From the NCBI RefSeq assembly GCF_006345805.1, contig NC_043008.1, forward strand, positions 42,160,001 through 42,224,000: a stretch of DNA of 64,000 nucleotides. Reading direction: 5' to 3'. This stretch comes from Octopus sinensis. Its lineage: Eukaryota. Made by a program: the position numbers and the translations under genes. The notes under the pieces are model-generated. The model saw only the letters and a list, made by a program, of their open reading frames with translations, did no database searches and was not told the DNA's origin. Each line of letters opens with the position of its first letter. The first letter of the stretch is position 1. This document shows, in pieces, positions 6,185-28,378 of the stretch.

Positions 6185-6371
6185 GGTGTCCGACAATAAA
6201 GTCACAGGAAAAAAGTCACTGTAATAAAGTTACAATTTTGGCTAGGGAAAAAAAGTCACAATTAATTTATGTTGGCTGATAATAAAGTCACGGATATACC
6301 CCTACTCCGGACAAAATCCTTTTGAATTTATTACAGTCACTTTTTTCCTGTGACTTTTTTAATTTGGATTC
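6185..6371. mobile_element. MITE-like non-autonomous DNA transposon nested in a degenerate SINE
   Basis: It has a 31-bp subterminal inverted repeat aaagtcacaggaaaaaagtcactgtaataaa (6198-6228) / tttattacagtcacttttttcctgtgacttt (6327-6357) and repeated AAAGTCAC motifs. The flanking aatataat / aatataac is a candidate target-site duplication. SINE halves lie at ~6070-6184 and ~6372-6425. Confidence 0.75.
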
Positions 6372-6427
6372 AATATAACGACCAGATAAGTATTGGGGTT
6401 AAACGTAAACGATTGCTCCATTCCTGG

Positions 6428-6474
<47 letters not shown>

Positions 6475-7069
6475 AGTGGCCTGAACTCTTTACATGAACA
6501 CCACCCTGTACATAACTCCATGTCCCCCAACATAGCCTTGCTTTTTGCTTTTTGAGCCAAAAATTAACTAACTAACTAACTAACTAACATATATATAAGC
6601 ATTTGGACAAACCGTCATAAAGCCATCGAATCGACAAGATCGTCATGGATGGGATCTATCTAGTCACAATTGTTGTAAAAGTGGAGAAGAAGTTAAACAT
6701 TATTAACTTAAATAACATTTGTTCCTACGCTGAATGTACCTTATGGATCAAAAGACCAAAGCAGCAAATGTCTTAAAATTGCTGGATCCCTAAATTTTTT
6801 TGGCAATCCGTCGTCGGCTAAGATTTATAGTACACTGTTGGGTTTCTAGTTCTGCTATAAAATTCAAAGTGATTCTTCTCTGATCGCTGCTGGCTTTACG
6901 CATAGATTAATATTTAACAGATATTTCGGAAGGCAACTTCACTGCAGGAATTATTATAACTTGTTATGTGTAACCTCGTCCGACTTCCTATTTATTTCTC
7001 TATATGTGTGTCTGAATATCTCTATACAATTGAGTTTGTGTGTGTATCAATCTATACAAACGTACATAT

Positions 7070-7131
<62 letters not shown>

Positions 7132-7345
7132 TATTGTGTCTGTGTGTGTGTATATAAATCTATATTATTAATCTATATTGTTAGTTTCGTCATCATTACT
7201 TCACAATTTTAATTACATATCTTAGTAATCGCATACAACAGTTTCATCTTTCTCTCTCTCACTACTTCGACTACTCTCTCTACTTCCACTACTTGCTGTC
7301 ACTTCCTCCCCTCTCACTTTCTATTTGTCTGTCTTCTATCTTTCA

Positions 7346-7571
7346 TATTTCTTTACTACCCACAAGGGGCTAAACACAGAGAGGACAAACAAGGACAGAC
7401 AAACGGATTAAATCGATTACATCGACCTCAGTGCATAACTGGTACTTATGTAATCGACCCCGAAAGGATGAAAGACAAAGTCGACCTCGGCGGAATTTGA
7501 ACTCAGAACGTAACGGCAGACGAAATACCACTTAGCATTTCGCCACTTAGCATTCTGCCAGCTCGCCGCCT
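7346..7571 (-). mobile_element. SINE family A copy
   Basis: It is the reverse complement of the element at 25934 (aggcggcgagctggcagaa...gagttcaaattccgccgaggtcgactttg) and has a B-box-like GTTCAAATT. Confidence 0.85.
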
Positions 7572-7971
7572 GCGTGTGTTTGTTTGTGTGTGTATGCGTG
7601 TATCCGTGGGTGTATGTAATGTGTGTGTGTGTGTGTGTGCGCGCGCGCGTGTGTGTCCAGGTAGAAAGATACTTCATGAAGGTGCCGCGTGCTGAGATCG
7701 AACGCGGAAACAAGTGCTTGCGATGCAAACTTCTTGACGGTGCAGCTATGCGTTCGCCCATTTTAGGTAATTTGATGAGGAATGATCTACTTAATACAAC
7801 TTCAATAACAATAATCGATTATAGATGCACCCAATACCAGTCACCACTCTCTGAGCCTTCCATGCTCTCTCTCCTTCTCTCCTCTTCTCCTTCTCTCCTC
7901 TCTTTCTCTCTACCCTTGTCTTTCTCTCTTCTCTCTCTCCCCTTCTCTCTTTCTCTCTAGCCTTGTGTTTC

Positions 7972-8007
<36 letters not shown>

Positions 8008-8720
8008 CACACACACCAACGTCTTTCATAAAGGTACATTAGTACATTATATCGAAAATTCTATTCTTTATGTATCTTCTTGATCATTCTCTACAATTCC
8101 TATTTATTCTATCAACCTAAGCACTTAAAGAAGATTGCATGCAATGTGTCTGTATTGTCTTTACATTCTTCTTTCCGTTCTTACCATTCCTACAACTAAC
8201 CACGTCTCACCTACACTCTTCTTTACATCTCCAACTTTCTTCGCGGTTTCTTTGTACATTTTTTGTTTTCTTTTCTACCGTTTCCCCTCTTCATTGTTTT
8301 TTTGCGTCGACGCCACACTCCCGATCAGCCTGATTCATCGTAATATACACAGAATAGCCTACAATACAGCTTACGTAAAACCTAAAATGATTAATTATAT
8401 TCGCTTATATGTATTTATACAAATGAAGATGCACCAACAGAGAATGCTTATCAGACAATCTTGACAACAGCTATTCTTTGTTTTGACATTCAACTGTGTT
8501 ACGACTAACGGTGAAATGGGTTTCAGCATACTTCATGTAATAATTCACGGAATTATAATTAATTATATCATACTGTTACTGAGGAGGTATCTTCTTAATC
8601 AGTAATTTAGATTTTTTTAAAGGAGTATGGGAGACAACCGAGGACATTACATGAATCGCAGAGAACTGACAGAGTAAGTAGCAACATGTCTGATATTTGT
8701 ATTAACTATCTTAATAAGAT

Positions 8721-8793
8721 GTGGCGGCACATGGCCTAGTATTTATAGCAGCGGACTCTCGGTCGAGGGATCGCGGGTTCGAATCTCAGACCC
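8721..8793 (+). mobile_element. tRNA-derived SINE head fragment
   Basis: It has an A-box-like tggcctagt...tagcagc and a B-box ggttcgaatc. There is no complete cloverleaf. Confidence 0.6.
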
Positions 8794-8937
8794 ATCAAAT
8801 TTCAAGCATTATACCTTAAGTAGAAAGGGGTAATTGATAAACATTTCTGATTGATTGATAAAAGAATTAATCAATCAATGGATTTCTCAATTGGTTCAAT
8901 GTTAACGAATGAACTAATAAATGTAAACGAAGTGAAA

Positions 8938-9390
8938 GGCGCCGGTGCGGCTGTGTCTTGAGAAGCTTGCTTCCAAAAGCCACATGGTTCTAGGTTCAGT
9001 CCCACTGTGTGGCACCTTTGGCAAGTGTCTTCTACTATATCTACGGGCCGACCGTAGCCTTGGGAGTGGATTTGGTAAACGGAAACTAAAAGAAGACCGT
9101 GTCGTGTGTATGTGTCTGCATGTGTGTGCGCGCGAGTGCGTGAACGTGCGTGCTTGTGTGCCAAAGTCTGTGTGTTTCGTTTTGTCTTTGTTCCCCACCA
9201 ACGCTTGACAACCGATGTTGGCTTGCTTACGCCCCCCGTAATTTAACGGATCGTCGTAAAGATAGATAGAATAAGTACCGAGTTTTTAAAAGTTACTGGG
9301 CTCTATTCATTCAACTAAAAATAAAAACAACTTCAAGGCGGTGCTCCAGCGTGGTTGCAGTCTAATATCGAAACGAATACATCAAATATA
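8938..9390 (+). mobile_element. SINE family B copy, near full length
   Basis: The sequence ggctgtgt...ccacatggttctaggttcagtcccactgtgtggcacctttggcaagtgtcttctactata...tttggtaaacggaaact recurs at ~2385, ~3818, 16380-16585(-), 28380-28470(-), 32535-32680(-) and 58030-58180(+). Confidence 0.8.
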
Positions 9391-9995
9391 AAAGAACTGA
9401 AATAAAACCAGTGCATGTGTTTATTATTAGCATAGTGATCCTCCCGAGAGACAACAAACTCTCTTTCAAAGCATGTTTTTAAAATACATTGTGAACCAAA
9501 TGCAAAAACGAAAATAGAATGAGGATGGTAGGGAATTCTGGAGGAATATTTCTGTTGTATTCACGTGTCCTGATATTATTGAAATCAACATTATCAAATG
9601 AATTCAAACCTTTACACTTATTTACGGTTTGTTAAGTGCATTGGCTTCCGTTTCTAGATCTCAGAACATATTTTAATGAGCAGTCATTAAGACCGGTCAC
9701 TAATTCATGGTGCATTTAATTAAACGTCATATAATTTATAGTAATAAACACGAGGGAGAAGGGAAAGGAATATGAATATAATCAATTTGACAGGTGACTG
9801 ACCGTTGAGACATTTATGAAGGTTATGAGAGTTTAACTACGACGAATATGACATATACGTTTATTTAGCAGCTTGTTACATATCATTCAATGTGGATATG
9901 GCTTTGGTTGCGTGGTTAACGGGTTCATTTGGCTACAACACTGGATCTCATAGCCTCACATCTCCATTACATGCTCTCTAGTATAACCTTCGGCT

Positions 9996-10031
<36 letters not shown>

Positions 10032-10123
10032 CCATTATACATTGTAAGTGGAATTTAGTACTCGTCATATATATGTGTGTGTATGTATACATGTATATAT
10101 GCATATATGTATAGGTGTATATA

Positions 10124-10339
10124 TACTTTTCTAATCTAGGCACAAGGCCCGATATTTTGGGGGAGGGGGCCAGTCGATTAGATCGACTCCAGTACGCAGC
10201 TGGTACTTAATTTATCGACCCCGAAAGAGTGAAAGGCAAAGTCGACCTCGGCAGTATTTGAACTCAGAACGTAAAGGCAAATGAAATACCTCTAAGCATT
10301 TCACTCGGCGTGCTAACGATTCTGCCAGCTCACCGCCTT
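10124..10339 (-). mobile_element. SINE family A copy
   Basis: It contains the shared core tttatcgaccccgaaag...aaggcaaagtcgacctcggc...tttgaactcagaacgtaa. Confidence 0.85.
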
Positions 10340-10344
10340 ATATA

Positions 10345-10562
10345 TATAGTTAGTTCAAACAAGAAAGCACAAAAAAAAAAAACAACAACGCGAGGACGTG
10401 GAACAAATATAGTATTATTGGACGCTCAGGAAAGAAGGGAAGAAAGAAGGTTTAACGTTTCGAACGGAGCTCTTCGTCAGAAACATAGGAGAAGGAAAGA
10501 TCCAGAGAAGGGAAGACAGAGGAAAAAAATCGTCAACGGTACACACGAGGTCACATTTTGAA
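10345..10562 (-). mobile_element. Short Penelope-like terminal-repeat element carrying a minimal hammerhead
   Basis: It is homologous to 56238-56420(+), sharing gagcgtc...aatac...ccacgtcctc-cgttgttg. It is bounded by (TA)n and has a hammerhead at 10450-10484. Confidence 0.7.
10450..10484 (-). ncRNA. Minimal type I hammerhead ribozyme motif
   Basis: The minus strand reads gttt-CTGACGA-a-gagc(tcc)gttc-GAAAC-GTT-aaac. Stem I is gttt/aaac, stem II is 4 bp, and stem III is the palindrome ACGT. Confidence 0.7.
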
Positions 10563-10786
10563 ATATATATATATATATATATATAATATATATGTGTGTG
10601 TGTGCGTGTGTAGATATGGATATAGATATAGATATAGATATGTACAGTCAGATGATGGCTTAGCGTGTTGACATTTCGAAGTCACTATCAGTACTATTCG
10701 TGTTAAGATATAATAATTTCATATTCTACCAAAAGTAGTGAGTAATTCTTTAATTTAATATAAAATTGTTTTTTTATTATGGCATA

Positions 10787-10821
<35 letters not shown>

Positions 10822-12244
10822 CGAGAGTGAGAAACAGAGAGACAGACAGAGAATAATAAAACAGGAAAAATACTTCACACGTTCTTAGTCAATGTTATTT
10901 GTTTGATAGAGAAGAAAGAATGAAAAGAGTAAAGACTGTTACCTTTCGGATATAGTCCTTTCTCAAATAGCAGAGAATAGTCCAGCGAACCGGGGAAGTG
11001 AAGGAAAGAGAAGAAAGGTGGTAAAAGAAGAGATAAGAGAAAGATACACCGAGAATCAAAGATTTGTGTGTATGTGTGTGCGTGTGTGTATCAGTTGGTA
11101 AAGAGGAGCATCGCGAAAATACAGAATGCGCCGCCGTGTCAAGGAATCTATCCGACAACATTTTAGTCCCACAATTTTCTTTAACATTTGAATTCCTCCC
11201 CATTTAAACGTAGTTCTGCACTTTAACCCCGCAGCCATTGTATCTCTCTACTTGAAAGTTTATACATTAGCGTGTTCTGTACACGCTCTTATGATTATAC
11301 TGTATGTAGTATTCGGCGGTAAGACAGAAAAAATATTATCGGTGACTGTTGTAACAAGGGAATTTTACACTTTGGAAAACCTAATTTGCAATTATTAGCT
11401 GAACTTTGTAAACTACTTTGAATGAACTTTTTAAAACTGTAGTCGCATCAGTCACTGAATATAGAGATTGTGGTCAGATAAGGTTGAGGTTTTGTCAGAC
11501 ATGAACTTGGCAAATAATTTTGTTCTAAATCAGGTTTCCAGAGAAGATAAACAACATAAGAACTACTTTAGAAAGATTATATAAAAATTATTTGTGAGAA
11601 CAAAACCGTTTGGACAAAATCAATGAAAAAGAACTTCTTGACTGCAAACTTCGTTCAAGTTAGAATCAAAGTTTCTATTCTGTTTTGCTTTGTATTTCCA
11701 TTTTGTGAAGATAAAACGTGAATTCTAAACGAAGACATTTGAAATGCATGTGGAATAGATTTGACACAGCGAGGCCAGTAGAAACCAACGCTGAAAGATA
11801 AATACAAAGCCATTTCTGTATGAAACGTGCAAAAGTTTAAAGAATTGAGTGAATTTATTTAAAAAATGGATTTCCACTTCCATTCAGTGAAACATTTTAA
11901 AGTTAAGATTCTGAAAACGATGTTCTCCTAGTTGGAAACTGCGTTATTGTCTCGTTGCAAAAATCCAACAATACGAATAACGCTGAGGTATTCTAACATT
12001 TTTACAAAGACACCCATTTATATAAATGGAATTTTGTATTTATTTACTGAATTCACACACAGTATATTACTGGAATGCCATTTTAGTAACCCCACGAGAG
12101 TTGAGAAGCAAAGTCGGATGAGGTGAGATTAGAGTCAGATCTTAAAGAAAGAAAAAAAAAACTGAATGCTGCGAAAAGCTTAGTCAAGTACTCCACAAAC
12201 GCCACTACATCTACCAAATTTTTAATATATATAAATCAATAAAA

Positions 12245-12276
<32 letters not shown>

Positions 12277-12297
12277 TATTATTATTATTATTATTAT

Positions 12298-12361
<64 letters not shown>

Positions 12362-12450
12362 TTCCTTCTTTCTTCTCGCCAAGTGTTTTCCATACACCTA
12401 GGGCAGAGAAGCTGTGTATGCATTCCCAGTTTACACACGTAAATTCACAG

Positions 12451-12484
<34 letters not shown>

Positions 12485-12491
12485 CATCATC

Positions 12492-12560
<69 letters not shown>

Positions 12561-13105
12561 CATTATCATTATTATTATTATTATTGTTATTATTATTGAG
12601 TGAGAGAGCAATGCATGCCATCAAAGTGACACTGGAGTACAAATATACGAAGTCTAACACACCATGACTACTCGTCTGATAAGGTTACACTAGCACATGC
12701 ATCACAACCATATGTGTGCGACATGGTGAGCTCATATCAAGATAAACAGCGCCTGACCTTTAAGGTGGGTCTCGGGATATTCCTCAGGTCGAGTAATCCA
12801 TTCCACTCAAAAGTTCCCTGAATAAGGGTTGTTTAAATATGTTGAACGAACCATCTATGTTTCCAGAGGTGAATTATCCAAAACCCAAAGAATTCCTTTC
12901 AACACATGGCTATGATGCTCCCCCAACAAATTATGCTCATGATCAGAGTTGTACATATTGTCAGCCACTAAGTGACATACTCACTGTTTAAGGTCAAGCA
13001 ACTGACAAGCAAATCTGTAGTATTGACTAATATATATGTCGTAACCCAGCTTTTATACCAAGACAAAACATGTATATGATAGCTCTTCATATCAGTCAAG
13101 ATCAA
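12245..13105. repeat. (ATT)n/(TAG)n tracts with embedded interspersed repeat fragments (12361-12450, 12598-13105)
   Basis: Complex sequence blocks have sharp borders against trinucleotide tracts, like the LINE insertions at 20-22.7 kb. I recognised no coding motif. Confidence 0.5.
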
Positions 13106-13229
13106 CTATTATTAATGTTGTTGTTGTTGTCGTCGTTGTTGAGATAACGATGATGATGATGACGATAAAGCGGAGACAGAGGAAACATAGAAATAGTCAT
13201 AACGAGATATCACTGGTTTCGTGTTGGAT

Positions 13230-13430
13230 GAAGGAGGTGACGGTGGTCATGTTCTTGATTATTATGATCATCATTATGGCCGTCGTCGGTCTTGCGATCC
13301 TCTCCATCATCATCATGATCATCAGCATCAACTTCATCATCATCGTCATCATCATCGTTGTGTCGTCATCATCAACATCATCATCGTCATCATCATCATC
13401 ATCGCCATCATCATAACCATCATCATCGCC

Positions 13431-13478
<48 letters not shown>

Positions 13479-13496
13479 GCCATCATCGCCATCACC

Positions 13497-13551
<55 letters not shown>

Positions 13552-13793
13552 CAGAGGCAGCAGTCACAAGAGCAGTAGCCGAGGCATGAACACCTCCGAT
13601 ACCATCCTAACCATCACAATCATCGCCGTTGCCGACATCATTATATAATAATCGTTATCATCATCATTGCCAAATTCGTTATCCTCCGCTTCCTCCTCCT
13701 CCTCCGTCACATCATCATCATCACCATCATCATCGTCATCATCATCATCGTCATCATCACCATCATCATCACCATCATCATCATCGTCATCAC

Positions 13794-13828
<35 letters not shown>

Positions 13829-13900
13829 CCATCATCACCATCATCATCATCATCACCATCATCATCGTCATCACCATCATCATCACCACCATCATCATCA
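13230..13900. repeat. Degenerate (CAT/CAC/CGT)n trinucleotide array
   Basis: Directly visible. It produces the spurious poly-His, poly-Ile, poly-Ser and poly-Met ORFs. Confidence 0.95.
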
Positions 13901-14300
13901 ACGGTATAAAAGAAGCCGACTTCTTTTTCTAAAATGAAAGCTAACGAAAAACGATCGATAAATTTGAATTACTTCAAATGACTGAAATTTTTTTGCTTGT
14001 TTTTTGTTTCATGAAGAAAAATATGTGACGCATGCGCACATATACACACCCTCTCTCTCCATCACAAAAAACGCATACACACAAATATACATATACATAC
14101 GCGCAAGCAAACACTCATATTTCATATGTGCTAATGTGTAACGATATAAATATCAATACATATATATGGATGTATATATATATATATGTGTGTATGTATG
14201 TGTGTGTGTGTGAATGTGCGTGTGTGCGTGTATGTGTGTGTAGATTGATAGATAGAAAATATGTGTATGTGTATACATAAATATATATATGTATATGCAT

Positions 14301-14346
<46 letters not shown>

Positions 14347-14452
14347 GTGTGTGTATGTATATATATATATATGCAGGTACATATATGTGCATATATATAT
14401 GTATGTATATATATATATACATATGTATAGGCATATATATGTATATATATAC

Positions 14453-14553
<101 letters not shown>

Positions 14554-14575
14554 TATACACACATATATATATATA

Positions 14576-14642
<67 letters not shown>

Positions 14643-15889
14643 GGGTATGTGTGTAAGGAAAGAAATTGTGGAATATTTTATAGTTTCTTAATTTTCTTAT
14701 TTTATCTTTTTTATATTTATTTAATTTTTGTTGTTGTCGCCTTTTCCTCGTACTATCGCTGTTGTTTTTCTTGTTAACGGTTTTATTGTTTTTATATTTT
14801 TGTATCTCTGTTGTTGTTCTTCTTCTTAAGTGTTTATTGTTTTATTGTTTCTGCGATTCCTTTTACCTTCTTTGATTCCATTGTTCCGTTCAATCATTAA
14901 ACATCTTAGTTTCAATTACCATCATTGTACATTCCACAATGTACGTTCACTCTTCACTTGCGGAGACACAAAAACACTCATGCATGCAGACTGATCTCTG
15001 CTTCTTTCTTTCTCTCTTTCTTTCTTGCTTTCTTCCTGTCTTTTTAACCTTATTTCTTTATTTCGTTCTTTCTTTCTTTCTCTTGCTCTCCCTGTCTCTC
15101 TCTCTCAGACACCCACACGTCAAAATACAAGCTCTCCCTAACTCTTCCCCTCAGTCTGTCTCTCTGGACCTCTTTCGCTTGTACAAGTGTGTCAGTGTGT
15201 GTGTGTGTCTGTATGTTGTTTGTGTGTGTATGTCTGTACTTGTATGTATATATAATACATATATAGCATGTGCACATAAATATGTATATATATATATATA
15301 TACACAAACACATGATTTTGTAGAAGTAATATACATCTATATATGAATATATACATTGATATCCCTCTTTATTCATATATACAAATATATGTATGTATAT
15401 ATGTATGTATACATACATATATACGTATATACACACATATACGTATAGAGGGAATTACATTTGTTTGCTTATAGAGGGAAATATAAATATACTTATATGC
15501 AGATGTGTGTGTATACGCTATATGTATATATATTGTGTTTATATGCATGTACTCGCACGCACATACACAAATGCACACACGCACACACCTATATGGATGC
15601 ATCCTTTCCTACCTGCATGCACAGAAAGATACCACTCTCTCTCTCTCTCTCTGTCTCTCTCTTTCCCTTTCGCTCCGTCGCTCCTCCTGTTCTAGTTGAT
15701 GAGGCAAATTCTTAAATTCAATCACCACCACCGCCACCATCACCATCTCAAGTAGCATCGTTACTATCACCATCATCAGCAGTGTTGCTAAGCAACAGCC
15801 ATTTGCTTCATCAGCTATTATGTTCACTATCGTACCCATGTTACTTTCCCTATTGCATTACGCAACTACCAATTCTATATAAACACCAA

Positions 15890-15922
<33 letters not shown>

Positions 15923-16024
15923 AATTAACAGCATCATATTTCTCATCATCGTCACCATCATCATTAACACCACCATCATGATTGTCATCAACGTTGTTAT
16001 CGACATTATCATTGTCAACGTAAT

Positions 16025-16062
<38 letters not shown>

Positions 16063-16585
16063 CAATCAGCAGCAGCATGATTAACGTGATACAGGTAACA
16101 CTAATAAACAACACCTTTATGACTTTTCCGTTGAAAGCTCCTAAATTTGAACCGATTCTGATAAGCATCGGTCACGAAACTCTCAGTTTTACAAGTGATA
16201 AAGGAAATTATCTTATTTCCCACTTCTACTTTTGAAATAAGTCTTAATCCACTCGAATGATTCTGTCAACTTCTGAGGCGATGGTCATCTGTAGATAAGA
16301 GGTCCGGAGAATATGGAGCTTTTTAAGCCTGATAATTTCTCCCATTTGCCGAACGGCTAGTTACCAGGATGTTAACGCATCAACACCGGTTGCCAAGATG
16401 TGGCACGGGACATACAGATACCAAGTCACACTTACACACGTAAACACACACTCACATACACTCACGTGCACATACACATACACACACGCACATTTATCTA
16501 AGATAGGCTTCTTTCAGTTTCTCTCAACCAAATCCATGCGCAAGGCTTTGGTCAGTCCGAAGCTATAGTAGAGGACACCTGCCCA

Positions 16586-16664
<79 letters not shown>

Positions 16665-16724
16665 GTATATATACATATCAAATATATACATATTAAAATA
16701 AGCAACAAGGATATCCAGAGGTAA

Positions 16725-16811
16725 TGCAGTACGATCGTTTCAAGCGACTCCATTTAATTGAACAATGAAAATATTACATCAATTTAAAATGCAAATCAAT
16801 CATCAGCTGCA
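16725..16811 (-). ncRNA. Type I hammerhead ribozyme motif with extended, partly decayed stem II
   Basis: The minus strand reads tgcag-CTGATGA-[58-nt imperfect hairpin with cattt/aaatg and aattga/tcaatt]-GAAAC-gatc-GTA-ctgca. Stem I is 5 bp and stem III is the perfect palindrome ACGATCGT. It sits in a ~240-bp element (16682-16925) between (TA)n tracts. Confidence 0.75.
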
Positions 16812-16928
16812 CAAAAATATAGAATTTAGTTAATTCGAAGGACTCATTAGAATAATTTTGTCCAAATCACCAGAGGATAAGAAGATGGACAAAGAACATG
16901 CTTTACCAAGAACATCACAGTTGTAATA

Positions 16929-16970
<42 letters not shown>

Positions 16971-17137
16971 AATATTAGGAATATATCCAAATTTACAGGG
17001 ATAAAAAAATCAGATTTAGATTACATCCAATTTTATAGTAAAATATTATAAATATTATTTGAGACAAAACCACTATTTGCAAAACAAACAAGGAAAGACT
17101 TAATCATACATAAAATTTAATAAATAGTCAAAAAACG

Positions 17138-17180
17138 CCACTACAATCGTTTCTTGTCTTGATCGACAATCTTCAGGTGG
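17138..17180 (-). ncRNA. Mirror copy of the intact hammerhead motif
   Basis: It is the exact reverse complement of 17220-17262. Confidence 0.85.
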
Positions 17181-17219
17181 ACTTCCAATAATTCAGTTAC
17201 AAACTGAATTATTGGAAGT

Positions 17220-17262
17220 CCACCTGAAGATTGTCGATCAAGACAAGAAACGATTGTAGTGG
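17220..17262 (+). ncRNA. Intact minimal type I hammerhead ribozyme motif, sense to the nAChR pre-mRNA
   Basis: The sequence is ccac-CTGAAGA-ttgtc(gatcaa)gacaa-GAAAC-gatt-GTA-gtgg. All core nucleotides are present, with stem I of 4 bp and stem II of 5 bp. The GUA triplet predicts cleavage after 17258. Confidence 0.85.
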
Positions 17263-17345
17263 CGGTTTTTTTGACTATTTATTAAATTTTTATGTATTGA
17301 TTAAGTCTTTCTTGTTTGTTTTGCAAAAATGGTTTGTCTCAAATA

Positions 17346-17397
<52 letters not shown>

Positions 17398-17405
17398 TAC
17401 ATACA

Positions 17406-17437
<32 letters not shown>

Positions 17438-18033
17438 CAAATATTATATGTATACTTCCAAATATGTGAGTGTGTATATGCTAGTTCTTCAACCTTTTAC
17501 ATGTCTTCCTGTTGTCCAGCTGTTTAACATATCTTTTTCTCCCTTCCCTTTTGTGTTTGTGGGGGCTGCAGAATAGACCAGGGAATAATTTAACTCAAGC
17601 TTTACAATGAACCAGAGATAGCAAACTATACAACAGACCCTCAAAAGCAGAAGAAATGGATTTTCTGAGTCTCAATGCTGAAGATGGATGCAGGTGATAA
17701 GGCATGAAAATTACGCCAAAACTTTTATACTGATGATAAAAACAATCCAGACTATATTCAGATTTCTTTTACTGTTTTTTTTTTTTAAATAGATTGGACT
17801 CGGTGACATTTTAGAATAAAACTTACTACTAGAGATCTTTGGGTCTATCCTATGTCTATCCTGGCCAAGCAAACCTTCACAAATTTCAATGGATTTCCTC
17901 AATGACAAATATCTAAATTTTCTGATCATGCAATTTCTTATTCAGTGTCAATATTTATTTCTCTCTTACATTTTATTTTCCTTATATTTCTCATGTCACA
18001 CTGACCATGGCTTTCCATTCTTTATAACATGTA

Positions 18034-18066
<33 letters not shown>

Positions 18067-18125
18067 TCTTCCTCTTCCTCTTTCTCTCTCCTTCCTTCCC
18101 TCTTTCCCTCTCTTTCTCTTTCTCC

Positions 18126-18184
<59 letters not shown>

Positions 18185-19056
18185 TTGTCTTTCTTTCTCT
18201 CTCTCTCATTCTCTCTCTTCCGCTTTTCTCTCTCTTTCTTTCTTCCTCTTTCTCTCTCTCTCTCACGGTCTACCTGTCTCTCTCTCTGTCTTCCTCTTTC
18301 TCCATCCCTCTCTCTCTCTCGATCTGTCTGTTTCTTTCTCTCTCTCTTTCTTTCACATACACACCCACACCCAACTCCCTCAAATCTCTGTCATCCACCC
18401 CCTCTTCAATACTCCTCCTCTCTCATTTACTCCTCCTTGCATCTCTCTCCCACACTATTTCCCTTACACACACACACACACACATCCACTCACCCACCCT
18501 CTCTCTCTCTCTTCCCCCCTCTCTCTCTCACTATTATTGCGTGGTTGTGATTGTCGCTTTAACAGCGTTATCTCCGTTTTCAAAAAATGCACATAAGTAT
18601 TTCAACCATCCTTGCATATATATCTGAAAACCCGAAGGCCCCGGCAGCCAGCCTCGTTGCACGTTAATGAAACGACATATTGACAGAGTAGCAAAGAAAA
18701 TACACTCCAACAACATAATTGCAAATAGGATATTTCCCATGATGCACTGCTAATTAAAACGTCTCAAAATTTTCAAGAAGCCTTAGGTGTTATTGTGATT
18801 CACAACATTGATTAAACAAATTGTAGACTAATCTCATTAATATGAGTGTGTGGACGAGTGTGTGTGTGTGTGTGTGCAGTTATATGTCTGTATAAATAGT
18901 TGCTTCAATGTGTGAACGTATTGAGATACAAATTTACCTATTTTCGTATTTACAAACATACATATATATAGATATAGATAGCTATTATGTAGATTTGTAT
19001 AAATGGAGATGTATATACGTACATGCACACATACACACATACACACACACCCTACA

Positions 19057-19115
<59 letters not shown>

Positions 19116-19296
19116 AGATATATAATATATATACAGTGTACACATGCGCAAACACATATACAAATGATTGCCTCAACATATTTTTAATAAATCTGTCACC
19201 GTATTTTAATACGTGTGTGTGTCTACGTATGTATCTGTGTGTGTATGTGTACATAATATCTAAAACATTCATATATATATATATATATATACATTC

Positions 19297-19365
<69 letters not shown>

Positions 19366-19413
19366 TGTGTACTTGCATATGTGTATATGCATACATATAT
19401 GTATAAAGTATTC

Positions 19414-19447
<34 letters not shown>

Positions 19448-19525
19448 ACTTTCACAGAAACACACATACAATAAGAACTATGTCAGTTGTCAGTTAACTT
19501 TCGTTTATTTATTTATTTGCTGTCC

Positions 19526-19602
<77 letters not shown>

Positions 19603-19904
19603 ATTATCATTATTATTATTTTTATTATTATCATTATTATTGCTATAATATTTTTGTATGATAATTACTCGGAAATGAAAGCAAAGGTGTTCCTCTGAAA
19701 TGGTATAGAATTGGATGGGAGGACTTCTGAAAGAAGGAATCTGGTATTCCTGGAAAACATTCATGGAACGATGCCTTCGGTTTAATGATATCATAATGGA
19801 AGAATATTAAGATATGTCATATTTATCGAAAAGAAGAGGATATATGAAAATGAGATACGTATGAGAACTTATCAGAATGCGGATGTTCATAATAAGAAAC
19901 ATGC

Positions 19905-20092
19905 AGGCGTCGAGCTGCCAGAAACGTTAGCACGCCAGGGGAAATGCTACCTTCTAAGTTCAAAATTCGACGAATTTTGCCTTTCATTCTGTCAGGGTCA
20001 ATAAATTAAGTACCAGTTGCGTACTGGGGTCGATCTAATCGACTGGACCGCACCCCTAAAAGTTCAGGCTTTGTGTCTAAAGTAGATAAGAA
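19905..20092 (+). mobile_element. SINE family A copy, internally deleted
   Basis: It reads aggcgtcgagctgccagaaacgttagcacgcc...aagttcaaaattc...taaattaagtaccagttgcgtactggggtcgat. Confidence 0.8.
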
Positions 20093-20108
20093 TATTATTA
20101 TTATTATT

Positions 20109-21668
20109 CAGTAGTTTTATTTTTATAGCGTGCTTTCTCTTCACTACCGAGCGCAGCTCTGTGTGCCTTGGGTATGTGCTGTGATTTGTTGTGATGCTCT
20201 GATGGTTATTGTATGGAATGTGTTCTGCGTAGGATGTGTGCAGTGCCTAGTAGTGCAATTTTCTGTATGTTATATGTGTTTGTAAGTCCTGGTGTTTTTG
20301 TCATGTATTTGTCTGAATATTTTTTTATCATGCCTAATGCACCTACTATGATAGGAATTATTTCTGTTTTCAGATTCCACATTCTAGTTACCTCTATTTC
20401 CAGGTCTTTGTATTTTGAGAGTTTCTCCATTTCTTTTAGAGACACGTTGTCATCTGCCGGTATTGATACATCAATTAGAAAGCATTTTTTTTCTTCATGA
20501 TCTCTGACAACTATATCTGGTCTGTTGGCCTTAATTTCTCTATCTGTGTGTATCGGCATATCCCAGAGTATGGTTGCTTTCTCGTTTTCTGTAACCTTTT
20601 CTGGTGTGTGCCTATACCATCTTTTTTCTGTTGTTATTCCATAATGTTGGCATAGCTTCCAATGTATGTAGGTTCCAACTCTGTCATGTCTGTGAATATA
20701 TTCCTTCTTAGCCAGGACTGGGCAGCTATATGATTTATTGTTTCTTGTCCATCTCCACATATTCTGCAGTTACTTGTAATATTTCTTTTCATTAAATGTT
20801 TTTGGTAATTTCTGGTGGGGAGGCTTTGGTCTTGTGCTGCAATTAAAAATCCCTCTGTTTCTGCTTTGAGTCCTGAGATTCTCAACCATTGCTGGGATTT
20901 TTCTTTGTCTATTTCTTTTGCGTTTAGTTTAGTCCAGTATTTACCATGAAGGGGCTTTTCTTACCATCGTTTTATCATGGCTCGTTGCTGTTCTATTTTT
21001 AGTTTGGATTTCATTTGTTTTATAGCTTTTGTTGTTTCTTCATCATCTTCTTCTTCTTTGTGTTTATTAGGTGGTATGATTTTTTGTTTGTATTTGTCAG
21101 CTTCCTTAAATACGGAGAACAGTTTTTTGTTTTGCCCGTGTTTTGCTGCTACCTGGATCAGTTTTCCTTCCTTCTGAAGTAGGTATTTTTGCAGTACTAT
21201 GGTGGTTATTTTATAGTAGTTTTCCAGCTGTATAAGGCCTCTACCACCTTCTATACGTTGTATATATAGTCTTTCTATGTCAGATTTTGGGTGATGCATC
21301 CTAGATCCTGTCAGTATTTTTCTTGTTTTCCTATCTATTTTGGACAGTTCATTTCGTGTCCAGTTAAGGATATTGTAGCTGTAACTTATAACTGGGACAG
21401 CTAAAGTGTTGATACCTATTATCTTGTTTTTAGCATTGAGCTCTGTTTTTAGTATTGATCTAACTCGTCTATAATATTCTTTTTTTATTTTCTCTTTCAT
21501 TTGTGTGTGTTATGTCTTATCTAGTTCATGGATTCCTAAGTATTTGTAAGTTTGGCTTTGGTTTTATCTAGTGTGATGTTGTTACTCTTAACTAGTTTTC
21601 CTCTTTTCATGGTTACTTTGGCGCATTTTTCTAATCCAAATTTCATATCTATTTCTTTGGTAAATCCA
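20109..21668 (-). mobile_element. 5'-truncated non-LTR retrotransposon with restriction-like endonuclease (R4/Dong-like clade), disrupted
   Basis: It shows the RT C-terminus (MKFGLEKC..., TYKYLGI), a CCHC knuckle CRICGDGQETINHI...CPVL (frameshifted), RHD, the RLE motif RPDIVV...IDVSIP and the terminal QKIALLGTAHILRR. The ORF pieces are 20961-21500, 20634-20885 and 20206-20760. (ATT)n flanks both ends. Confidence 0.92.
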
Positions 21669-21677
21669 TTATTATTA

Positions 21678-21719
<42 letters not shown>

Positions 21720-21720
<1 letters not shown>

Positions 21721-22162
21721 GACGTCGCACATTATACAATATCGTGAGGTTGTTGAGTGAAGATATTGAGTCTACCGAGATTTTGTACTGTTTGTCAAGT
21801 CACAAGGGCCCCAAATAGACTACTTTCCGCAATATACGTGCAGTTCCAAGTAATGCCGACTTTTGCAGTACATCTAGTTTGAAGGGTATTTTCAGATTTC
21901 ATTTTAGATTGGGTGGTATTGAACCCAATGCTCAGATAACAATGGAGATAACCTTTATGTTCGATTCTCGTAGCTGCCACATCTTGGCCATTTCAAGTCT
22001 CCATTTATATCGACCGTTTCTCTTTCTTTCATGAGGATAGGTTGATCTCCTGGCACAGCTACGTCGATTATGAGGCATTCTTATTTGTCCCTCCTAAAGG
22101 TTACAATTATTCGGCCTTCGGTGCTCTAACACTTTGACTGTCTGGAAATCAAAGCCCCAGGG
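21720..22162 (-). mobile_element. Second, distinct RLE-LINE 3' fragment (degenerate)
   Basis: The minus strand translates in pieces as WGFDFQTVKVLEHRRPN, ECLIIDVAVPGDQ and LDVLQKSALLGTARILRKV. (ATT)n flanks both sides. Confidence 0.85.
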
Positions 22163-22226
22163 AATTATTATTATTATTATATTATTATTATTATTATTAT
22201 TATTACTATTATTATTATTATTATTA

Positions 22227-22267
<41 letters not shown>

Positions 22268-22269
22268 TA

Positions 22270-22303
<34 letters not shown>

Positions 22304-22347
22304 CATCATCATTATCATTATTATTATTATTATATATTATTATTATC

Positions 22348-22397
<50 letters not shown>

Positions 22398-22550
22398 CAT
22401 TATTATCATCATCATTATCATCATCATTATTATTATTATCATCATCATCATCATTATAATTATTATATTATCATTATTATCATTATTATTATCATTATTA
22501 TTATTATTATTATTTTTATTATCATCATTATTATTATTATTATTATTATT

Positions 22551-22743
22551 TCCATTTAGCTTCTCTGAACCCTTGGTTTCAGCTGTTTCGGCTAATTCTG
22601 TAAGAGCAGACAGCAATCTGTTGTCAAGGATCTCACTGGGTCTCTCCCCACAATGCATAACATCTAAGTACCAAACTCAAATTTCTCGTTGTCCACAACA
22701 GAGCAGTTATTTAAACCCGTTCCACACTCATGCCAATCCCAAA
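22551..22743 (-). mobile_element. Third RLE-LINE extreme 3' fragment
   Basis: The minus strand reads GIGMSVERV*ITALLWTTRNLSLVL, which resembles the QKxALLGTARILR terminus. A short UTR follows and runs into (AAT)n. Confidence 0.6.
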
Positions 22744-22753
22744 GATAGAAAGG

Positions 22754-22854
<101 letters not shown>

Positions 22855-23367
22855 CATGCATACATGCATACATATGCCTGCCGCTCTCTGTCATTCTTTC
22901 TCTCAATTGCCCTCTCGCTTTTTCTCGCTTTCTCTTTATCACACACATCAAACACATCAAATAAACGATTATATACAGGTGGTGATTGAAAAGATTAAAT
23001 CACCACACCGATAATCATTGATCTTAAACCTGTATCAGAAACCACAGAAACCTACTCACGCTATCTCAGGCATTCGCTATCGACGTCCCTCGCAAATACT
23101 CTTCCCTTGTTATGAAAGTTTCTTGAGAGAATACAAAAATACTTTTCCGTTGCTCTTGTTCTCCATCTTCTCGGCTAGATACAATCAAATCTTCCGCTCA
23201 TATATGGTCATAAAAAATGTTACAATACGAAAGAAACGCAAAATATTTTCTTCTAATAATTCTACAATTTGACTGCTTCGTTGCTGATATTAAATTAATT
23301 GCCTGAAGGAGAGTAATATGTAAAGTTTATCTCGGTGGAATTTGAACTCCGAATGTCAAGACTAGAA

Positions 23368-23470
<103 letters not shown>

Positions 23471-23534
23471 TATATGGCAAATTATCTTATTTAACGTTTT
23501 ATCGGTTCTGCTACATCGCAACCGGTTGTAGACC

Positions 23535-23770
23535 AATATTGATTTCATATATGAAAGTAATATCCTTAATATGGGATCAGCATATTTATCAATCAATATT
23601 GATACTGTATTTGAAAACAATGTCATTAAAGATATAATCGATATTGCTTTGAGAGAAACTGATTCCATACTATAAAACAATATCATTAATATGAGATCGA
23701 TGAGATTAGAAATTAATATTGGTCCCATATTTTTAAATAATGTAATTATGTATGGGATCAATATTGTCCA
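23535..23770. repeat. Degenerate ~60-bp minisatellite, ~4 copies
   Basis: The pattern aatattgat...aaaacaatatcattaatatg-gatc recurs. Confidence 0.6.
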
Positions 23771-25573
23771 TTGCTATTGGAATATTTCTTCCGGTTCTTA
23801 ACAATCTGAAGAATTCTTGGATAATGGAAATAATGCGTTGCCCGGTTTAAAATTACTATCAGATTCTACGGTGCCTTTAGTGGAGTCCATCTATTGGAGG
23901 CATTTGGGGTACATGTTTGGATTGAGGTCACCATTTTGTCTTCCTCCCACCCAACTCAGACGGCTGAAAACAACCATGGACGCTGCCTTTTCGGCCTAGG
24001 TTAGACTTTAAAGCAAAATATTGAAAATATGTGAACTTGATCTAATCGATAATAAAAGTGAATCTGAAACTCAGCAACTTCGGTATATATCGTTTACTAC
24101 TTCTGACATGTTGGCAACCATTTAATTGAAATTTTTGTATTGAAAAGGCGTCAAGTTTCAAGACCAAAAATACCTTTATATACTCACCACAGTACCCGAT
24201 CTCTTCACATCTTCCGTTATCTCCGACTGTGTTGTTTAGTCACTGGTCGATTACATTTTCTATTTTTGTTATAACAAAATCAATCATTTGTCAATAGGAA
24301 ATACTGGACTGAACACGGCTGAAACGATTTTGCTTAAGTGAAACACCGAAGGAAAACTTACACAAGAATAAGTTTGTTCTAACCTGCGACAGGGTTATTT
24401 ATTTTTAGATCCAGTCCTGCCGTGTACATATGTATGGTTGTGATGGTAGTTTTAAAGACGCGGTTAAGCTGGAGAAAGTGAAGCCGTGTCCCTAAATATT
24501 TCATTAAAAGCTTTCAAATTTATTTTGCTGTTAATTTTGAAATCATACATTTTGCTTGGTTTTTCTTTCATTTACCCCTGTAGATACCAACACATACAAA
24601 CATAGAATTTAATTGGTTGCGAACCTGAAGGCACCGGACTTAATTAATTTCCAGAAAGCATGTGAATAAATCCGGTAATAAATCCTAAGCAACTTCCAAG
24701 GACTATATTTAGTTTCATATTTTTCTGGCACTACAGAAATATCGAAGTTGGAACAGCTTCTTCGGAAATATAAACTTGCCGTTCTTGGCTTTCATACTTA
24801 AACAGTAAACAAATTTAACTCATTTTTTTTCTTTCTCTCTTTAGAATTGTCATACAATCTAATAATGATTCCTTGCTTTAAGATTCTCATTGGAACTGTA
24901 TCAACGTCGGTTTATTTGGTATTTTCAACTTGTTTAGTATTTTTAAATTATTTGTTTACTTTTGCGGTGTAATTTACTCTAAAAGAATACTTGTTGGCTA
25001 AATATATTCATTTCCATTAGCTTTTAAGAACTTGTTGCCATTGCTGCTGTTGTGGTTGTTGCTGTTGTTGTTCGTGGATTAACTGTAAAACCAAAAAGAA
25101 TTAAACAAAATTAAAACGAAAGACGAAACATTAATGATAAAGCGAACAATTGCCGTTGTGAAGCAAGTATTTCGACTCTATTTTAAGTGTTCGACAACAC
25201 ACCAAACCAACTTGCCGTAGTTTCTTTTATCAAATGCCGAAAACCAGAAATTGTCTTAAACCAAAAGAAAAAAGAAAAAAAATATATTCTCAAAGATATA
25301 TTTACCCTTCCCTTTGCAATGTAAAAATAATTTTATGTTTCCATAGACATCTTATACATAGATTAGTCTATACTTTAACCATTCCACACAAGACTAGATA
25401 AGTGGGCAGGCAAATTTGGGGGAAAAAGAGAGAGAGGGAGAAATACATAAAGATAGGCAAATACGTTGAAGGAAGCATACAAATATACATACATATATTC
25501 ACACACAAACATAGATATATACATACAAACATACGTACATATATTCATTCACACACACACATAGATGCACACG

Positions 25574-25628
<55 letters not shown>

Positions 25629-25933
25629 CATACATACATATGGTACTCTGGTAGGTGTCCGTCGTTCAATGATGTGTTGTTTGGTCAATTGTATTATCTG
25701 CTGATGAAATTGACATGTAAGTGACTGAGTATTCCGCCGACACATGTTACCTATAATGTAATTCTCCGACAGAATCATCATGGCACAGTGTGTCACACGG
25801 CTGTAACTTCTCAAACACAGACTGAATCCACACAAGGGACTTCTGTGCAATTCCCTTCAACACCATTTCATTCATAATATATGGACCGACTTGAGCAAGG
25901 GTCGATGACCGTTACCCAATATTGAATCCATGT

Positions 25934-26511
25934 AAGGCGGCGAGCTGGCAAAAGAGTTAGCTCGCCGGGCGAAATGCGTAGCGGTGTTTCGTCCACCGTT
26001 ACGTTCAGAGTTCAAATTCCGCCGAGGTCGACTTTGCCTTTCATCGTTTCGAGGTCGATAAATCAAGTACTAGTTACGCACTGGGTTCGATATAATCGAC
26101 TTAATCCGTTTGTCTGTCCTTGTTTGTCCTCTCTGTGTTTAGCCCCTTGTGGGTAGTAAAGAAATAGGTATTTCGTCTGCCATTGCGTTCTGGGTTCAAA
26201 TTCCGCCGAGGTCAACTTTGCCTTTCATCCTTTCGGGGTCGATAATTTAAGTACCAGTTACGCACTGGAGTCGATATAATCCGTCTGTCTTTGCTTGTTT
26301 GTCCTCTGTGTTTAGCCCGGTGTGGGTAGTAAAGAAATAAGTATTTCGTCTGCCATTACGTTCTGGGTTCAAATTCCGCTGAGGTCGACTTTGCTTTTCA
26401 TCCTTTCAGGGTCGAAAAATTAAGTACCAGTTGCGTACTTGGATTAACCTAATCGGGTGGACGCTTCCCCAAAAGATTTTGGGCCTTGTACCTAGAGTAG
26501 TAAAGAATATT
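25934..26511 (+). mobile_element. SINE family A tandem trimer
   Basis: A full copy at 25934-26168 is followed by two 5'-truncated units, each restarting at gtatttcgtctgcc after ...gggtagtaaagaaata. Confidence 0.88.
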
Positions 26512-27805
26512 GAATCCGAGTGCTTGTGGTTGCGAACTGCACTTGTTAAAGATTTGGTCAATATGTACCAACACATCCATATATACATAAATAGAACTAG
26601 TCAATCACCAATTCCCTCTCTCTTTCTCTCTCTCTCGTCCTTTCCTTCTCTCTTTCTTTTTTCTCTTAGCCTTCCTGTCCCTCTCTCAATTCCTTTCTCT
26701 CTACACTGGCTAAATAAAGAATTTAAGAATAATACGTTTCTATCAACCCTTTAAAGGCAGCTACTAGGAACACAAGAAAAAATAGTGTGCCAAAGCCACT
26801 ATTACGAAGTTGTAAATAGATACATTGACGATGTAGCAGACACCAGTCTCATTAAAACTATCAGCTCTGTGTAATTGACAGCTGTGTAAATCTCCCGAGT
26901 ATAAATCTTTCGAGTTCAGTGAGGGATCGTCTCTGGAAGCACAAACTATGTTGTAAGTCTCGCAGTAATAGTTTGTTCATTTTTTACAACCATTATGCTA
27001 TTATTTTTTTCTCTTTGTTTGTTGATAACGCGGCAACACATAAATCTTGTGGAACTTTAAAACTACATTACAGAACATGAAAAATGAATCATTCACTAAA
27101 CCTTACTATCTTGAAAATATCCTTTTTAACCCCTCCCCCTCCATAAATCCTAGAAGGTAAAAATTTTAAGTCTACATTGATTGATGGCATTCCACCATAT
27201 GATGGCTCATAATTCGGTGATGTGTTTTCCTGAATTCAATTTACTTACAGAAATAACGGTTTTGATTCTCAACCTGTAACGCGATGAAGGAAATGTTTAA
27301 CAGAAGACTTACAGTGCTTTTAACACTGCATAAACCTCCTCTCTATCTTCCCCTTCTCTCTCTCTCTCCCTCTCCCTCTCTCTCCCTCTCTCTCTTCCAC
27401 CGACACATACTCTTTCCAATCTAACTTATATATTCCCTCTGGAGCTAATTATAACGGCAGTTTTCCGAACTTTTATAAAAACAAATTAATCCGGATAATT
27501 AATTTCGTTCAGTTTGCACTTAGTAATAAATCTGCGTCTCAACTTTGTGTTTTTTGTTTTTGTTTTTTGCTTAACAAGTTGCACTCATCATATCATAAAC
27601 CGTGATTATAATTGAAGACCTCCAAAGTACAGCTGATACTTTTGACTATTTCTCTCATAAAACATCAACTTGTTGCCGTCATAAAGCTGCCTCCTTTCTC
27701 TCGTCTTATCTTTTCCAAGTTACGCATTTTATGAACATTAATTACTACCTTACAAGTAATTGATTTCAAATTTTAGCACAAGGCCAGCAAGATCGGGGGA
27801 GGGCA

Positions 27806-28378
27806 TTGTGGAAACTGGCCGATTGCAGACTTTGTATTGTTCACACTGAAGATAGCACCCACATATCACCAGGGTATTATCTACCGATGAGACATGACGC
27901 TGTAGCTAGGACACTCTATAATGAAATCCGTCGGAAGGATAAACCCGATGACAAAGAAATGGGAACCCACAGTATGGTAGAAGGTATAGCCACTCATAAC
28001 GAAAAGGAACACTGGTGGAAAATGTCCCCGTGAATACCTCAACAAAATGTAAGCACAACAGACCTGATACAATGATCTGGGATAGAGAATAGAAAAGGTG
28101 CACAGTTGTGGAAATTAGCTGCTCAGCGGTTGTTAAAATAAAGCTGAAGATTAGTAAAAAATAGAAAACATATTCTGAACTATTGAGAAATCTGCAGTTA
28201 CTCTTTCCAGGTTACAGTTTCAAGTTTATACCTGTAATTATTGGGACCCTGGGATATGTAACACGCTGCCTAAATACCAATCTTGAGAAATTAGGCTTCC
28301 TAAAACCAGAAAGTAGGAAGTTAATTCGAAGACTAAAGATCCAATCCATCACTGGAACTGTAAAAATCTGTATATTTT
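27806..28378 (+). mobile_element. RLE-type non-LTR retrotransposon 3' fragment (another family), degenerate
   Basis: It translates in pieces as CRLCIVHTEDSTHI...YYLPMRHDAVAR, KCKHNRPDTMIWDRE*KRCTVVEISC and FKFIPVIIGTLGYV, with stops and frameshifts. Confidence 0.85.

What the first reader, a model, noticed from the sequence alone, without database searches (positions are those of the whole stretch)
17050..17351. Antisense-locked hammerhead: intact ribozyme inside a 300-bp palindrome in a receptor intron
Seen: a complete type I hammerhead at 17220-17262(+), with CUGAAGA/GAAAC core, GUA site and stems I and II intact. Its exact mirror lies at 17138-17180(-), and the two point outward from the palindrome centre. 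In either transcription direction the antisense arm is made first and can pair with the ribozyme. Established: Penelope-like elements carry minimal hammerheads with short palindromic stem III that work best as dimers (ACGAUUGU here is self-complementary with two G-U pairs), and coleoid cephalopods edit dsRNA heavily through ADAR. Inference: the fold-back form neutralises a self-cleaving RNA in a host pre-mRNA. It could behave as an editing- or temperature-sensitive switch, or be a self-priming non-autonomous retro-unit.
Basis: partly seen in the sequence, partly recalled or inferred. Interest (0 to 1): 0.8.

Follow-up and report, generated by a model that had tools for sequence, protein, structure and literature searches.

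The report
Spliced Penelope leader copied head-to-head
This 300-base mirror repeat in a receptor gene's intron is one of hundreds of intron-less stubs of a Penelope-like jumping gene, likely made when two reverse-transcribed copies of one spliced RNA were joined head to head; it is likely not a host switch, but it shows which RNA these elements copy.

Summary
The palindrome, the exact mirror hammerheads and the intronic position in a nicotinic-receptor-like gene are all real. The unit is the terminal repeat (pLTR) of a young Hydra-type Penelope-like element (PLE): 1,607 exact hammerhead copies and at least 457 head-to-head centres lie in this genome. Fold-back is the usual product (29 of 36 sampled intron-less insertions). 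Head-to-head pLTRs and opposite-strand minimal hammerheads are published. A lone minimal hammerhead is reported inactive, and simulated editing or temperature change never frees it. The new part: both arms carry the exact exon-exon junction of a 1.3-1.8 kb GT-AG intron of the parent element. Intron-less arms (1,441) outnumber intron-retaining ones (726), occur in three subfamilies, mostly stop at an initiator A, and often show an extra cap-type letter. Close fold-backs pair one tailed with one untailed end (30 of 30), and either arm can be truncated. Best model: two target-primed cDNAs from one capped, spliced sense mRNA, joined by microhomology. This argues against the published antisense self-priming model and offers an explanation of PLE intron retention. 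I found no report of it in the papers I could search.

The parts
16926..16967 (.). left (TA)n tract, the target site
   Evidence: sequence; sampled copies end in (TA)n
16968..17049 (-). about 80-nt tail, present on this arm only; marks the distal (long) start site of reverse transcription (inferred)
   Evidence: in L036 the same sequence runs on into the ORF
17050..17189 (-). left arm, exon 2 of the element's leader, with the mirror hammerhead at 17138-17180; antisense in the host pre-mRNA
17190..17203 (-). left arm, last 14 nt of exon 1, spliced directly to exon 2 (junction 17189/17190)
17202..17203 (.). 2-nt microhomology (AA) at which the two arms are joined
   Evidence: sequence
17202..17210 (+). 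right arm, last 9 nt of exon 1 (junction 17210/17211)
17220..17262 (+). minimal type I hammerhead motif, predicted cleavage after 17258
17211..17351 (+). right arm, exon 2 ending at the proximal (short) site without the tail
17352..17394 (.). right (TA)n tract, the target site
   Evidence: sequence
16680..16925 (-). piece of a second, older repeat family with its own hammerhead motif (16724-16812, 58-nt stem II region), abutting the same TA tract
274..37413 (+). 37.1-kb GT-AG intron of a nicotinic acetylcholine receptor alpha-like gene that holds the element

Best explanation
The palindrome is an intron-less, head-to-head pair of terminal-repeat arms of a young Hydra-type Penelope-like retrotransposon, likely made at insertion by two target-primed reverse transcriptions of one capped, spliced sense mRNA, and likely neutral to the receptor gene. 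Shown: the parent element has exon 1, a GT-AG intron, a hammerhead exon and an RT plus GIY-YIG ORF; both window arms lack the intron exactly; one arm has the tail and one does not; both ends lie in (TA)n. Inferred: the endonuclease nicks both strands of (TA)n; each nick primes at one of two internal sites about 150 and 230 nt past the splice junction; each cDNA runs through the uncleaved hammerhead towards the cap; the two 3' ends are joined by microhomology or bluntly. Because priming is close to the 5' end, a spliced mRNA can yield only a stub without ORF or upstream sequence. Full elements would come from read-through RNA whose downstream intron mostly stays unspliced, which would explain intron retention.
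For: Parent: RT motifs, CxCx5C linker and GIY-YIG-type end linked to the same hammerhead in L033, L035, L036, L041/L042; nearest Atlas clusters carry RVT_1, GIY-YIG and HTH_animal on part of their members. Splicing: donor GTAAGT and acceptor TTTTAG bound a 1,290-1,309 or 1,805-1,838 nt intron; both ATT triplets are kept at the junction, so it is not a microhomology deletion. 1,441 junction arms against 726 acceptor arms. The junction occurs in three subfamilies with mostly the same linked alleles as their intron-bearing parents. A +4 donor variant occurs (L082, L094). 5' end: none of 30 scored insertions (of 35) keeps over 23 nt of exon 1, 8 keep exactly 23, and that letter is the A of a TCACTTC initiator-type motif (motif consensus recalled). 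Only 15 junction arms keep 31 nt, against 552 unspliced donors. Next to that A the cDNA strand shows a non-genomic C in 136 arms and the genomic G in 36; in 9 of 29 inspected places the partner arm cannot supply the C, and L171 joins two full-length arms each with the extra letter. Two primers: 30 of 30 close fold-backs in the position-ordered sample and 19 of 20 in the best-hit set have one tailed and one untailed end; among these 50 the tailed arm is cut inside exon 2 with the untailed arm complete in 7, the reverse in 2. One template: arms differ 0.41% within and 1.15% between insertions (21 loci, 210 pairs) and share rare junction variants (L077, L082). PMC11167929 reports two internal start sites matching the tail, extension of both strands and use of uncleaved RNA for another PLE.
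Against: All evidence is genomic; no transcript, cap or splice was seen in RNA. Asymmetric arms could partly come from deletions after insertion, and arm similarity from gene conversion. In 20 of 29 inspected places the extra C can also be read as partner-arm sequence, and the 100 arms where A follows the C were not inspected. 12 of 36 arms of one subfamily carry an exon-2 allele other than that of its single sampled parent. Rare spliced arms reach 34-367 nt upstream (12 loci inspected of 15), so read-through or upstream-started RNA is sometimes spliced. 7 of 36 intron-less insertions are solo. Pfam and PDB gave no hit for the parent ORF. Neutrality for the host is assumed from youth and abundance, not tested.
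Confidence: 0.75

Rival explanations
1. One cDNA is primed at the tailed site, copies the spliced sense RNA, snaps back on itself and copies itself up to the untailed site.
For: Many centres are hairpin-like with 1-5 nt microhomology, including the window's 3-nt loop; arms are near-identical; it also predicts one tailed and one untailed end.
Against: It cannot give a complete untailed arm with a tailed arm cut at +57 to +168 (7 of 50 fold-backs), nor L171, where both arms end in the extra letter with no loop, unless later deletion is added.
Confidence: 0.15
2. One reading: the host keeps the fold-back to neutralise a self-cleaving intronic RNA, or uses it as an editing- or temperature-sensitive switch.
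For: The hairpin is predicted at -208.5 kcal/mol and excludes the hammerhead fold; it lies in the sense strand of a receptor intron; a 150-bp duplex is a plausible ADAR substrate (own knowledge). A preprint reports retrozymes depleted from Xenopus introns (10.64898/2026.07.22.740005).
Against: Fold-back is the usual product. The copy is young: no substitution against parent L036 over 136 aligned sites. The monomer fold has probability 0.02 alone and stem I 2e-4 in the free arm. With 10-50% of A changed to G or made unpairable the duplex stayed at over 0.998, while the five core A scored survived in 16, 4 and 1 of 40 trials; 10-37 C changed nothing.
Confidence: 0.05
3. The palindrome is a non-autonomous unit that spreads as a whole (MITE-like, or self-priming on an antisense RNA as proposed in PMC3846280).
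For: Some centres recur exactly (the window and L005; several others) and a few palindromes sit in tandem (L040).
Against: Centres vary widely; recurrent ones recur in all three subfamilies at microhomologies; an antisense RNA would not lose a sense GT-AG intron or gain a cap-type letter at the sense start.
Confidence: 0.04
4. Assembly fold-back artefact.
For: The window copy differs from family contigs by several homopolymer indels that may be assembly errors; no spanning read was available.
Against: Hundreds of copies share the structure with fixed tailed/untailed ends and varied joins; the arms are unequal in length.
Confidence: 0.01

Closest known systems
Head-to-head inverted pLTR insertions of endonuclease-bearing PLEs (PMC3846280, PMC8557442; passages and named sections read)
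   Same: Inverted 5'-truncated copy next to the pLTR, palindrome at the join, tail at one end only, 5'-UTR intron near the start site.
   Different: Here most arms have lost the intron exactly; the tail is about 80 nt, not 30-40; the evidence points to a sense template, whereas PMC3846280 proposed antisense self-priming and left the question open.
Hydra clade PLEs, including Hydra-1_Obim (PMC8557442, section 11 and supplement search)
   Same: C-terminal GIY-YIG without CCHH, DKT, CxCx5C linker, CxxC and CxH, hammerhead, (TA)n target.
   Different: Different hammerhead and N-terminal protein sequence from Hydra-1_Obim; unit about 5.7 kb with a 1.3-1.8 kb intron and an Asn-rich insert; no tree was built.
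Minimal PLE hammerheads (PMC4209133; parts 1-2 of 4 read)
   Same: Short stem I, palindromic stem III; that paper already notes pairs on opposite strands 100-700 bp apart and no cleavage by a single motif.
   Different: In D. virilis splicing changes helix I; here the junction lies 9 nt before stem I, so the core helices are the same in both forms.
PAc internal initiation (PMC11167929; parts 1-2 of 4 read)
   Same: Two internal start sites that bracket the tail, both strands extended, uncleaved RNA used, AT-rich target.
   Different: Poseidon clade, in vitro; the parts read give no model for the inverted join or for spliced templates.
L1 twin priming and processed retrocopies (recalled, not read here)
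   Same: Two primers on one RNA, microhomology join, intron loss, extra G at full-length 5' ends.
   Different: L1 twin priming inverts part of a copy; here both primers start near the same place and give an inverted duplication.

Membership tests
Endonuclease-bearing PLE | single ORF with RT and GIY-YIG endonuclease linked to the pLTR | tested here: met
   parent loci L033, L035, L036, L041/L042 by motifs, alignment and Atlas; Pfam and PDB gave no hit; the window copy itself has no ORF
Endonuclease-bearing PLE | partial tandem and inverted pLTRs, tail at one end | tested here: met
   tandems L031, L036; inverted L032-L035, L038; tail
Endonuclease-bearing PLE | hammerhead motif in the pLTR | tested here: met
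Endonuclease-bearing PLE | intron retained after retrotransposition | tested here: inconclusive
   met for long copies (726 acceptor arms), not met for the window copy and 1,441 junction arms
Hydra clade | DKT, CxCx5C linker, no CCHH, CxxC and CxH near the C-terminus | tested here: met
   translations against the definition
Hydra clade | N-terminal RWK motif | tested here: inconclusive
   KWK in L036 and L041; RWK or KWK in homologues
Hydra clade | insertion into (TA)n | tested here: met
Hydra clade | generally under 3 kb | tested here: not met
   tandem unit 5,732 nt in L036; stated as a tendency
Hydra clade | phylogenetic placement of the RT | not tested
   no tree built
Non-LTR retrozyme | head-to-tail tandem units each with a hammerhead | tested here: not met
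   head-to-head pair, one motif per strand; definition
Active hammerhead ribozyme | self-cleavage | not testable with these tools
   fold predictions only
ADAR-edited intronic hairpin | A-to-G clusters in RNA against DNA | not testable with these tools
   only contigs were offered, no raw reads

The most novel reading that the evidence does not exclude
PLEs integrate by twin target-primed reverse transcription of a single capped sense RNA from their two internal start sites. Spliced mRNAs are copied often but can yield only leader stubs like this one, so intron retention and head-to-head repeats both follow from internal priming, with no antisense template. These stubs record the element's start site, cap and splice choices in DNA.
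Probability: 0.55. Interest if true: 0.68.

Novelty: new variant of a known kind. Interest (0 to 1): 0.5.

Why it matters
How PLEs keep introns and form head-to-head repeats is called unknown in PMC8557442 and left as sense versus antisense template in PMC3846280. More than a thousand intron-less arms with a start-site stop and a cap-type letter bear directly on that question and give a precise model to test in vitro. They also add hundreds of near-perfect 150-bp hairpins to the genome, which would be likely ADAR substrates where transcribed. The locus itself is most likely ordinary transposon debris.

Tried and rejected
Rfam scan: only hairpin and microsatellite look-alikes among the 150 listed of 247 matches. 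Pfam on 4 parent ORF pieces and 4 homologues, and PDB by sequence: no informative hit. I first took the ORF for Neptune from memory and rejected that on the missing CCHH and the Hydra motifs. Sequencing runs: no RNA holder on record and contigs only; four runs laid on the left arm showed family-type differences and cannot show editing; four guessed-RNA runs had no contig on the receptor exon, which is no evidence on expression. A donor for the second family's putative intron was not found within 1.5 kb upstream in 33 loci. BLAST-based 5' extents near symmetric centres are noisy (12 short, 11 long, 7 equal), so only gross truncations were used. Three look-ups of earlier findings returned nothing. 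PMC138580 and PMC522041 are not held. No structure or complex prediction was run.

Full report
Observation. The two 43-nt motifs are exact mirrors. The inner 63 bp pair perfectly round a 3-nt loop, and 17050-17351 folds at -208.5 kcal/mol. A hammerhead descriptor finds 3 hits in the window and 1 in 30 shuffled windows. The site lies in a 37.1-kb GT-AG intron of a + strand nicotinic-receptor-like gene: the flanking exons join in frame, match the Pfam ligand-binding and membrane domains, and two earlier exons lie upstream. No call names the organism; that it is an octopus is my inference from recall of its repeat landscape.

It is a repeat family. The exact motif occurs 1,607 times in G000, with 0 for the reversed control. 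Head-to-head centres number 314 with 6-36 nt spacers and 143 with 37-60 nt spacers. Longer loci taken from the first 100 listed places show the parent: partial tandems (L031, L036) and large inverted insertions (L032-L035, L038, L041/L042), several with an ORF carrying RT motifs, an Asn-rich insert, a CxCx5C linker and a GIY-YIG-type end. Pfam and PDB miss it; the nearest Atlas clusters carry HTH_animal, RVT_1 and GIY-YIG on part of their members. DKT, CxCx5C, no CCHH, CxxC, CxH and (TA)n targets match the Hydra clade as defined in PMC8557442. It is not Hydra-1_Obim. I built no tree.

The gross structure is known. PMC8557442 describes an inverted 5'-truncated copy beside the pLTR and a tail at one end. 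PMC3846280 describes palindromes at head-to-head joins and proposes self-priming on an antisense template to explain intron retention, while not excluding an unspliced sense template. PMC4209133 reports opposite-strand minimal hammerheads 100-700 bp apart and no cleavage by a single motif.

The arms are spliced. In the parent the hammerhead exon follows an acceptor, and the sequence found at the centre of the palindrome lies 1.3-1.8 kb upstream, followed by GTAAGT. Both window arms join these exons exactly (17189/17190 and 17210/17211). Genome-wide there are 1,441 junction arms and 726 acceptor arms. The junction appears in three subfamilies, whose sampled parents have introns of 1,290-1,309 or 1,805-1,838 nt, with mostly the same linked alleles; 12 of 36 arms of one subfamily carry another exon-2 allele than its one sampled parent. 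A +4 donor variant also occurs. A single old deletion would not give this.

The template looks like a capped mRNA. I fetched 59 short loci covering the first 100 places that were not already held as long loci: 23 retain the intron, 29 are intron-less fold-backs and 7 are solo or unclear. Of 35 intron-less insertions examined, 30 could be scored; none keeps more than 23 nt of exon 1 and 8 keep exactly 23, ending at the A of TCACTTC, an initiator-type motif by recalled consensus. Only 15 junction arms keep 31 nt, against 552 unspliced donors, some of which are duplicated within one element; the 12 inspected reach 34-367 nt. Beyond that A the cDNA strand has a non-genomic C in 136 arms and the genomic G in 36. 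Of the 36 arms in which the C is not followed by A, 30 loci (29 places) were read: in 20 the partner arm could supply the C, in 9 it cannot, and L171 is two full-length arms each with the extra letter, joined with no loop. An extra C opposite the cap is a recalled property of reverse transcriptases.

Two primers, one RNA. All 30 close fold-backs in that sample, and 19 of 20 in the best-hit loci (27 examined after dropping 3 duplicates), have one tailed and one untailed end. In 7 of these 50 the tailed arm is cut inside exon 2 while the untailed arm keeps exon 1; in 2 it is the reverse. A single cDNA folding back cannot make both kinds without later deletion. Arms of one insertion differ by 0.41% and arms of different insertions by 1.15%, and rare junction variants are shared by both arms. 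PMC11167929 shows for another PLE two internal start sites that bracket the tail, extension of both target strands and use of uncleaved RNA. The simplest reading is twin priming on one capped, spliced sense RNA, followed by a microhomology join (AA at 17202-17203 here). Since the start sites lie only 150-230 nt past the junction, spliced mRNA gives stubs; full copies need read-through RNA that keeps the downstream intron. Why that intron is usually kept is untested; dependence of first-intron splicing on a nearby cap is my guess.

The switch idea. The duplex does exclude the hammerhead fold in prediction, but the free arm scarcely forms it either, and no same-strand partner was found in the window. 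Random A-to-G or unpairable changes at 10, 30 and 50% left the duplex above 0.998, while the five core A scored survived in 16, 4 and 1 of 40 trials; 10-37 C changed nothing. The copy matches parent L036 with no substitution over 136 sites, so it is young. Editing and cleavage could not be tested because only contigs were offered, and the intron versus intergenic comparison needs annotation that I lacked.

Novelty. Searches showed no report of intron-less pLTR stubs or twin priming in PLEs; most results were seen as listings only. Read: PMC8557442 (passages, sections 11 and 15, supplement searches), PMC3846280, PMC2377424 and PMC13282606 (passages), PMC4209133 and PMC11167929 (parts 1-2 of 4), preprint 10.64898/2026.07.22.740005 (part 1 of 5 and passages; its supplements are closed). 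PMC2377424 says that the majority of PLEs contain introns and that most transcripts are spliced, so intron-less copies may be mentioned in older papers that are not held (Arkhipova 2003 and 2006, Evgen'ev and Arkhipova 2005, Pyatkov 2002 and 2004; for the last two). Supplements of PMC11167929 and PMC4209133 were not opened and may bear on this. Verdict: an ordinary locus and a known kind of element, but a variant that bears on an open mechanistic question.

Noticed in passing
window 16680-16925 (-): Second hammerhead-bearing repeat family, about 88-90% identical among best copies, 3,154 first-look candidates. Many copies have an acceptor-like CAG exactly at the window copy's 5' boundary and a few show another upstream sequence, so it may repeat the spliced-stub pattern. 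No donor was found.
   Followed up: partly
L042:569-2362, L036: The parent ORF has a long Asn-rich insert between thumb and linker, as reported for rotifer Penelope ORFs; homologues P0011-P0013 carry Asn-rich inserts at this or other places.
   Followed up: partly
L003 and L039 centres: Unrelated sequence (67 nt in L003, about 620 nt in L039) lies between the two arms; the L003 insert matches nearby flanking DNA, suggesting capture at the join.
   Followed up: no
L033, L034, L041, L042: Two subfamilies carry duplicated exon-1/donor units and internal repeats of about 420 nt in the region upstream of the hammerhead.
   Followed up: no
window 20206-21509 (-): Broken reading frames that look like the C-terminal part of a LINE-type retrotransposon (by recalled motifs); no Pfam hit.
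   Followed up: partly
window 1865-2733 and 3313-4064: Near-identical open frames about 1.45 kb apart indicate a local tandem duplication in the intron.
   Followed up: no
window 56689-56792: Another near-perfect hairpin of about 100 nt centred on a TA tract.
   Followed up: no
window 164-39306 with L150, L151: The host gene is a nicotinic receptor alpha-like subunit with the vicinal cysteines of loop C, spread over at least 86 kb.
   Followed up: partly
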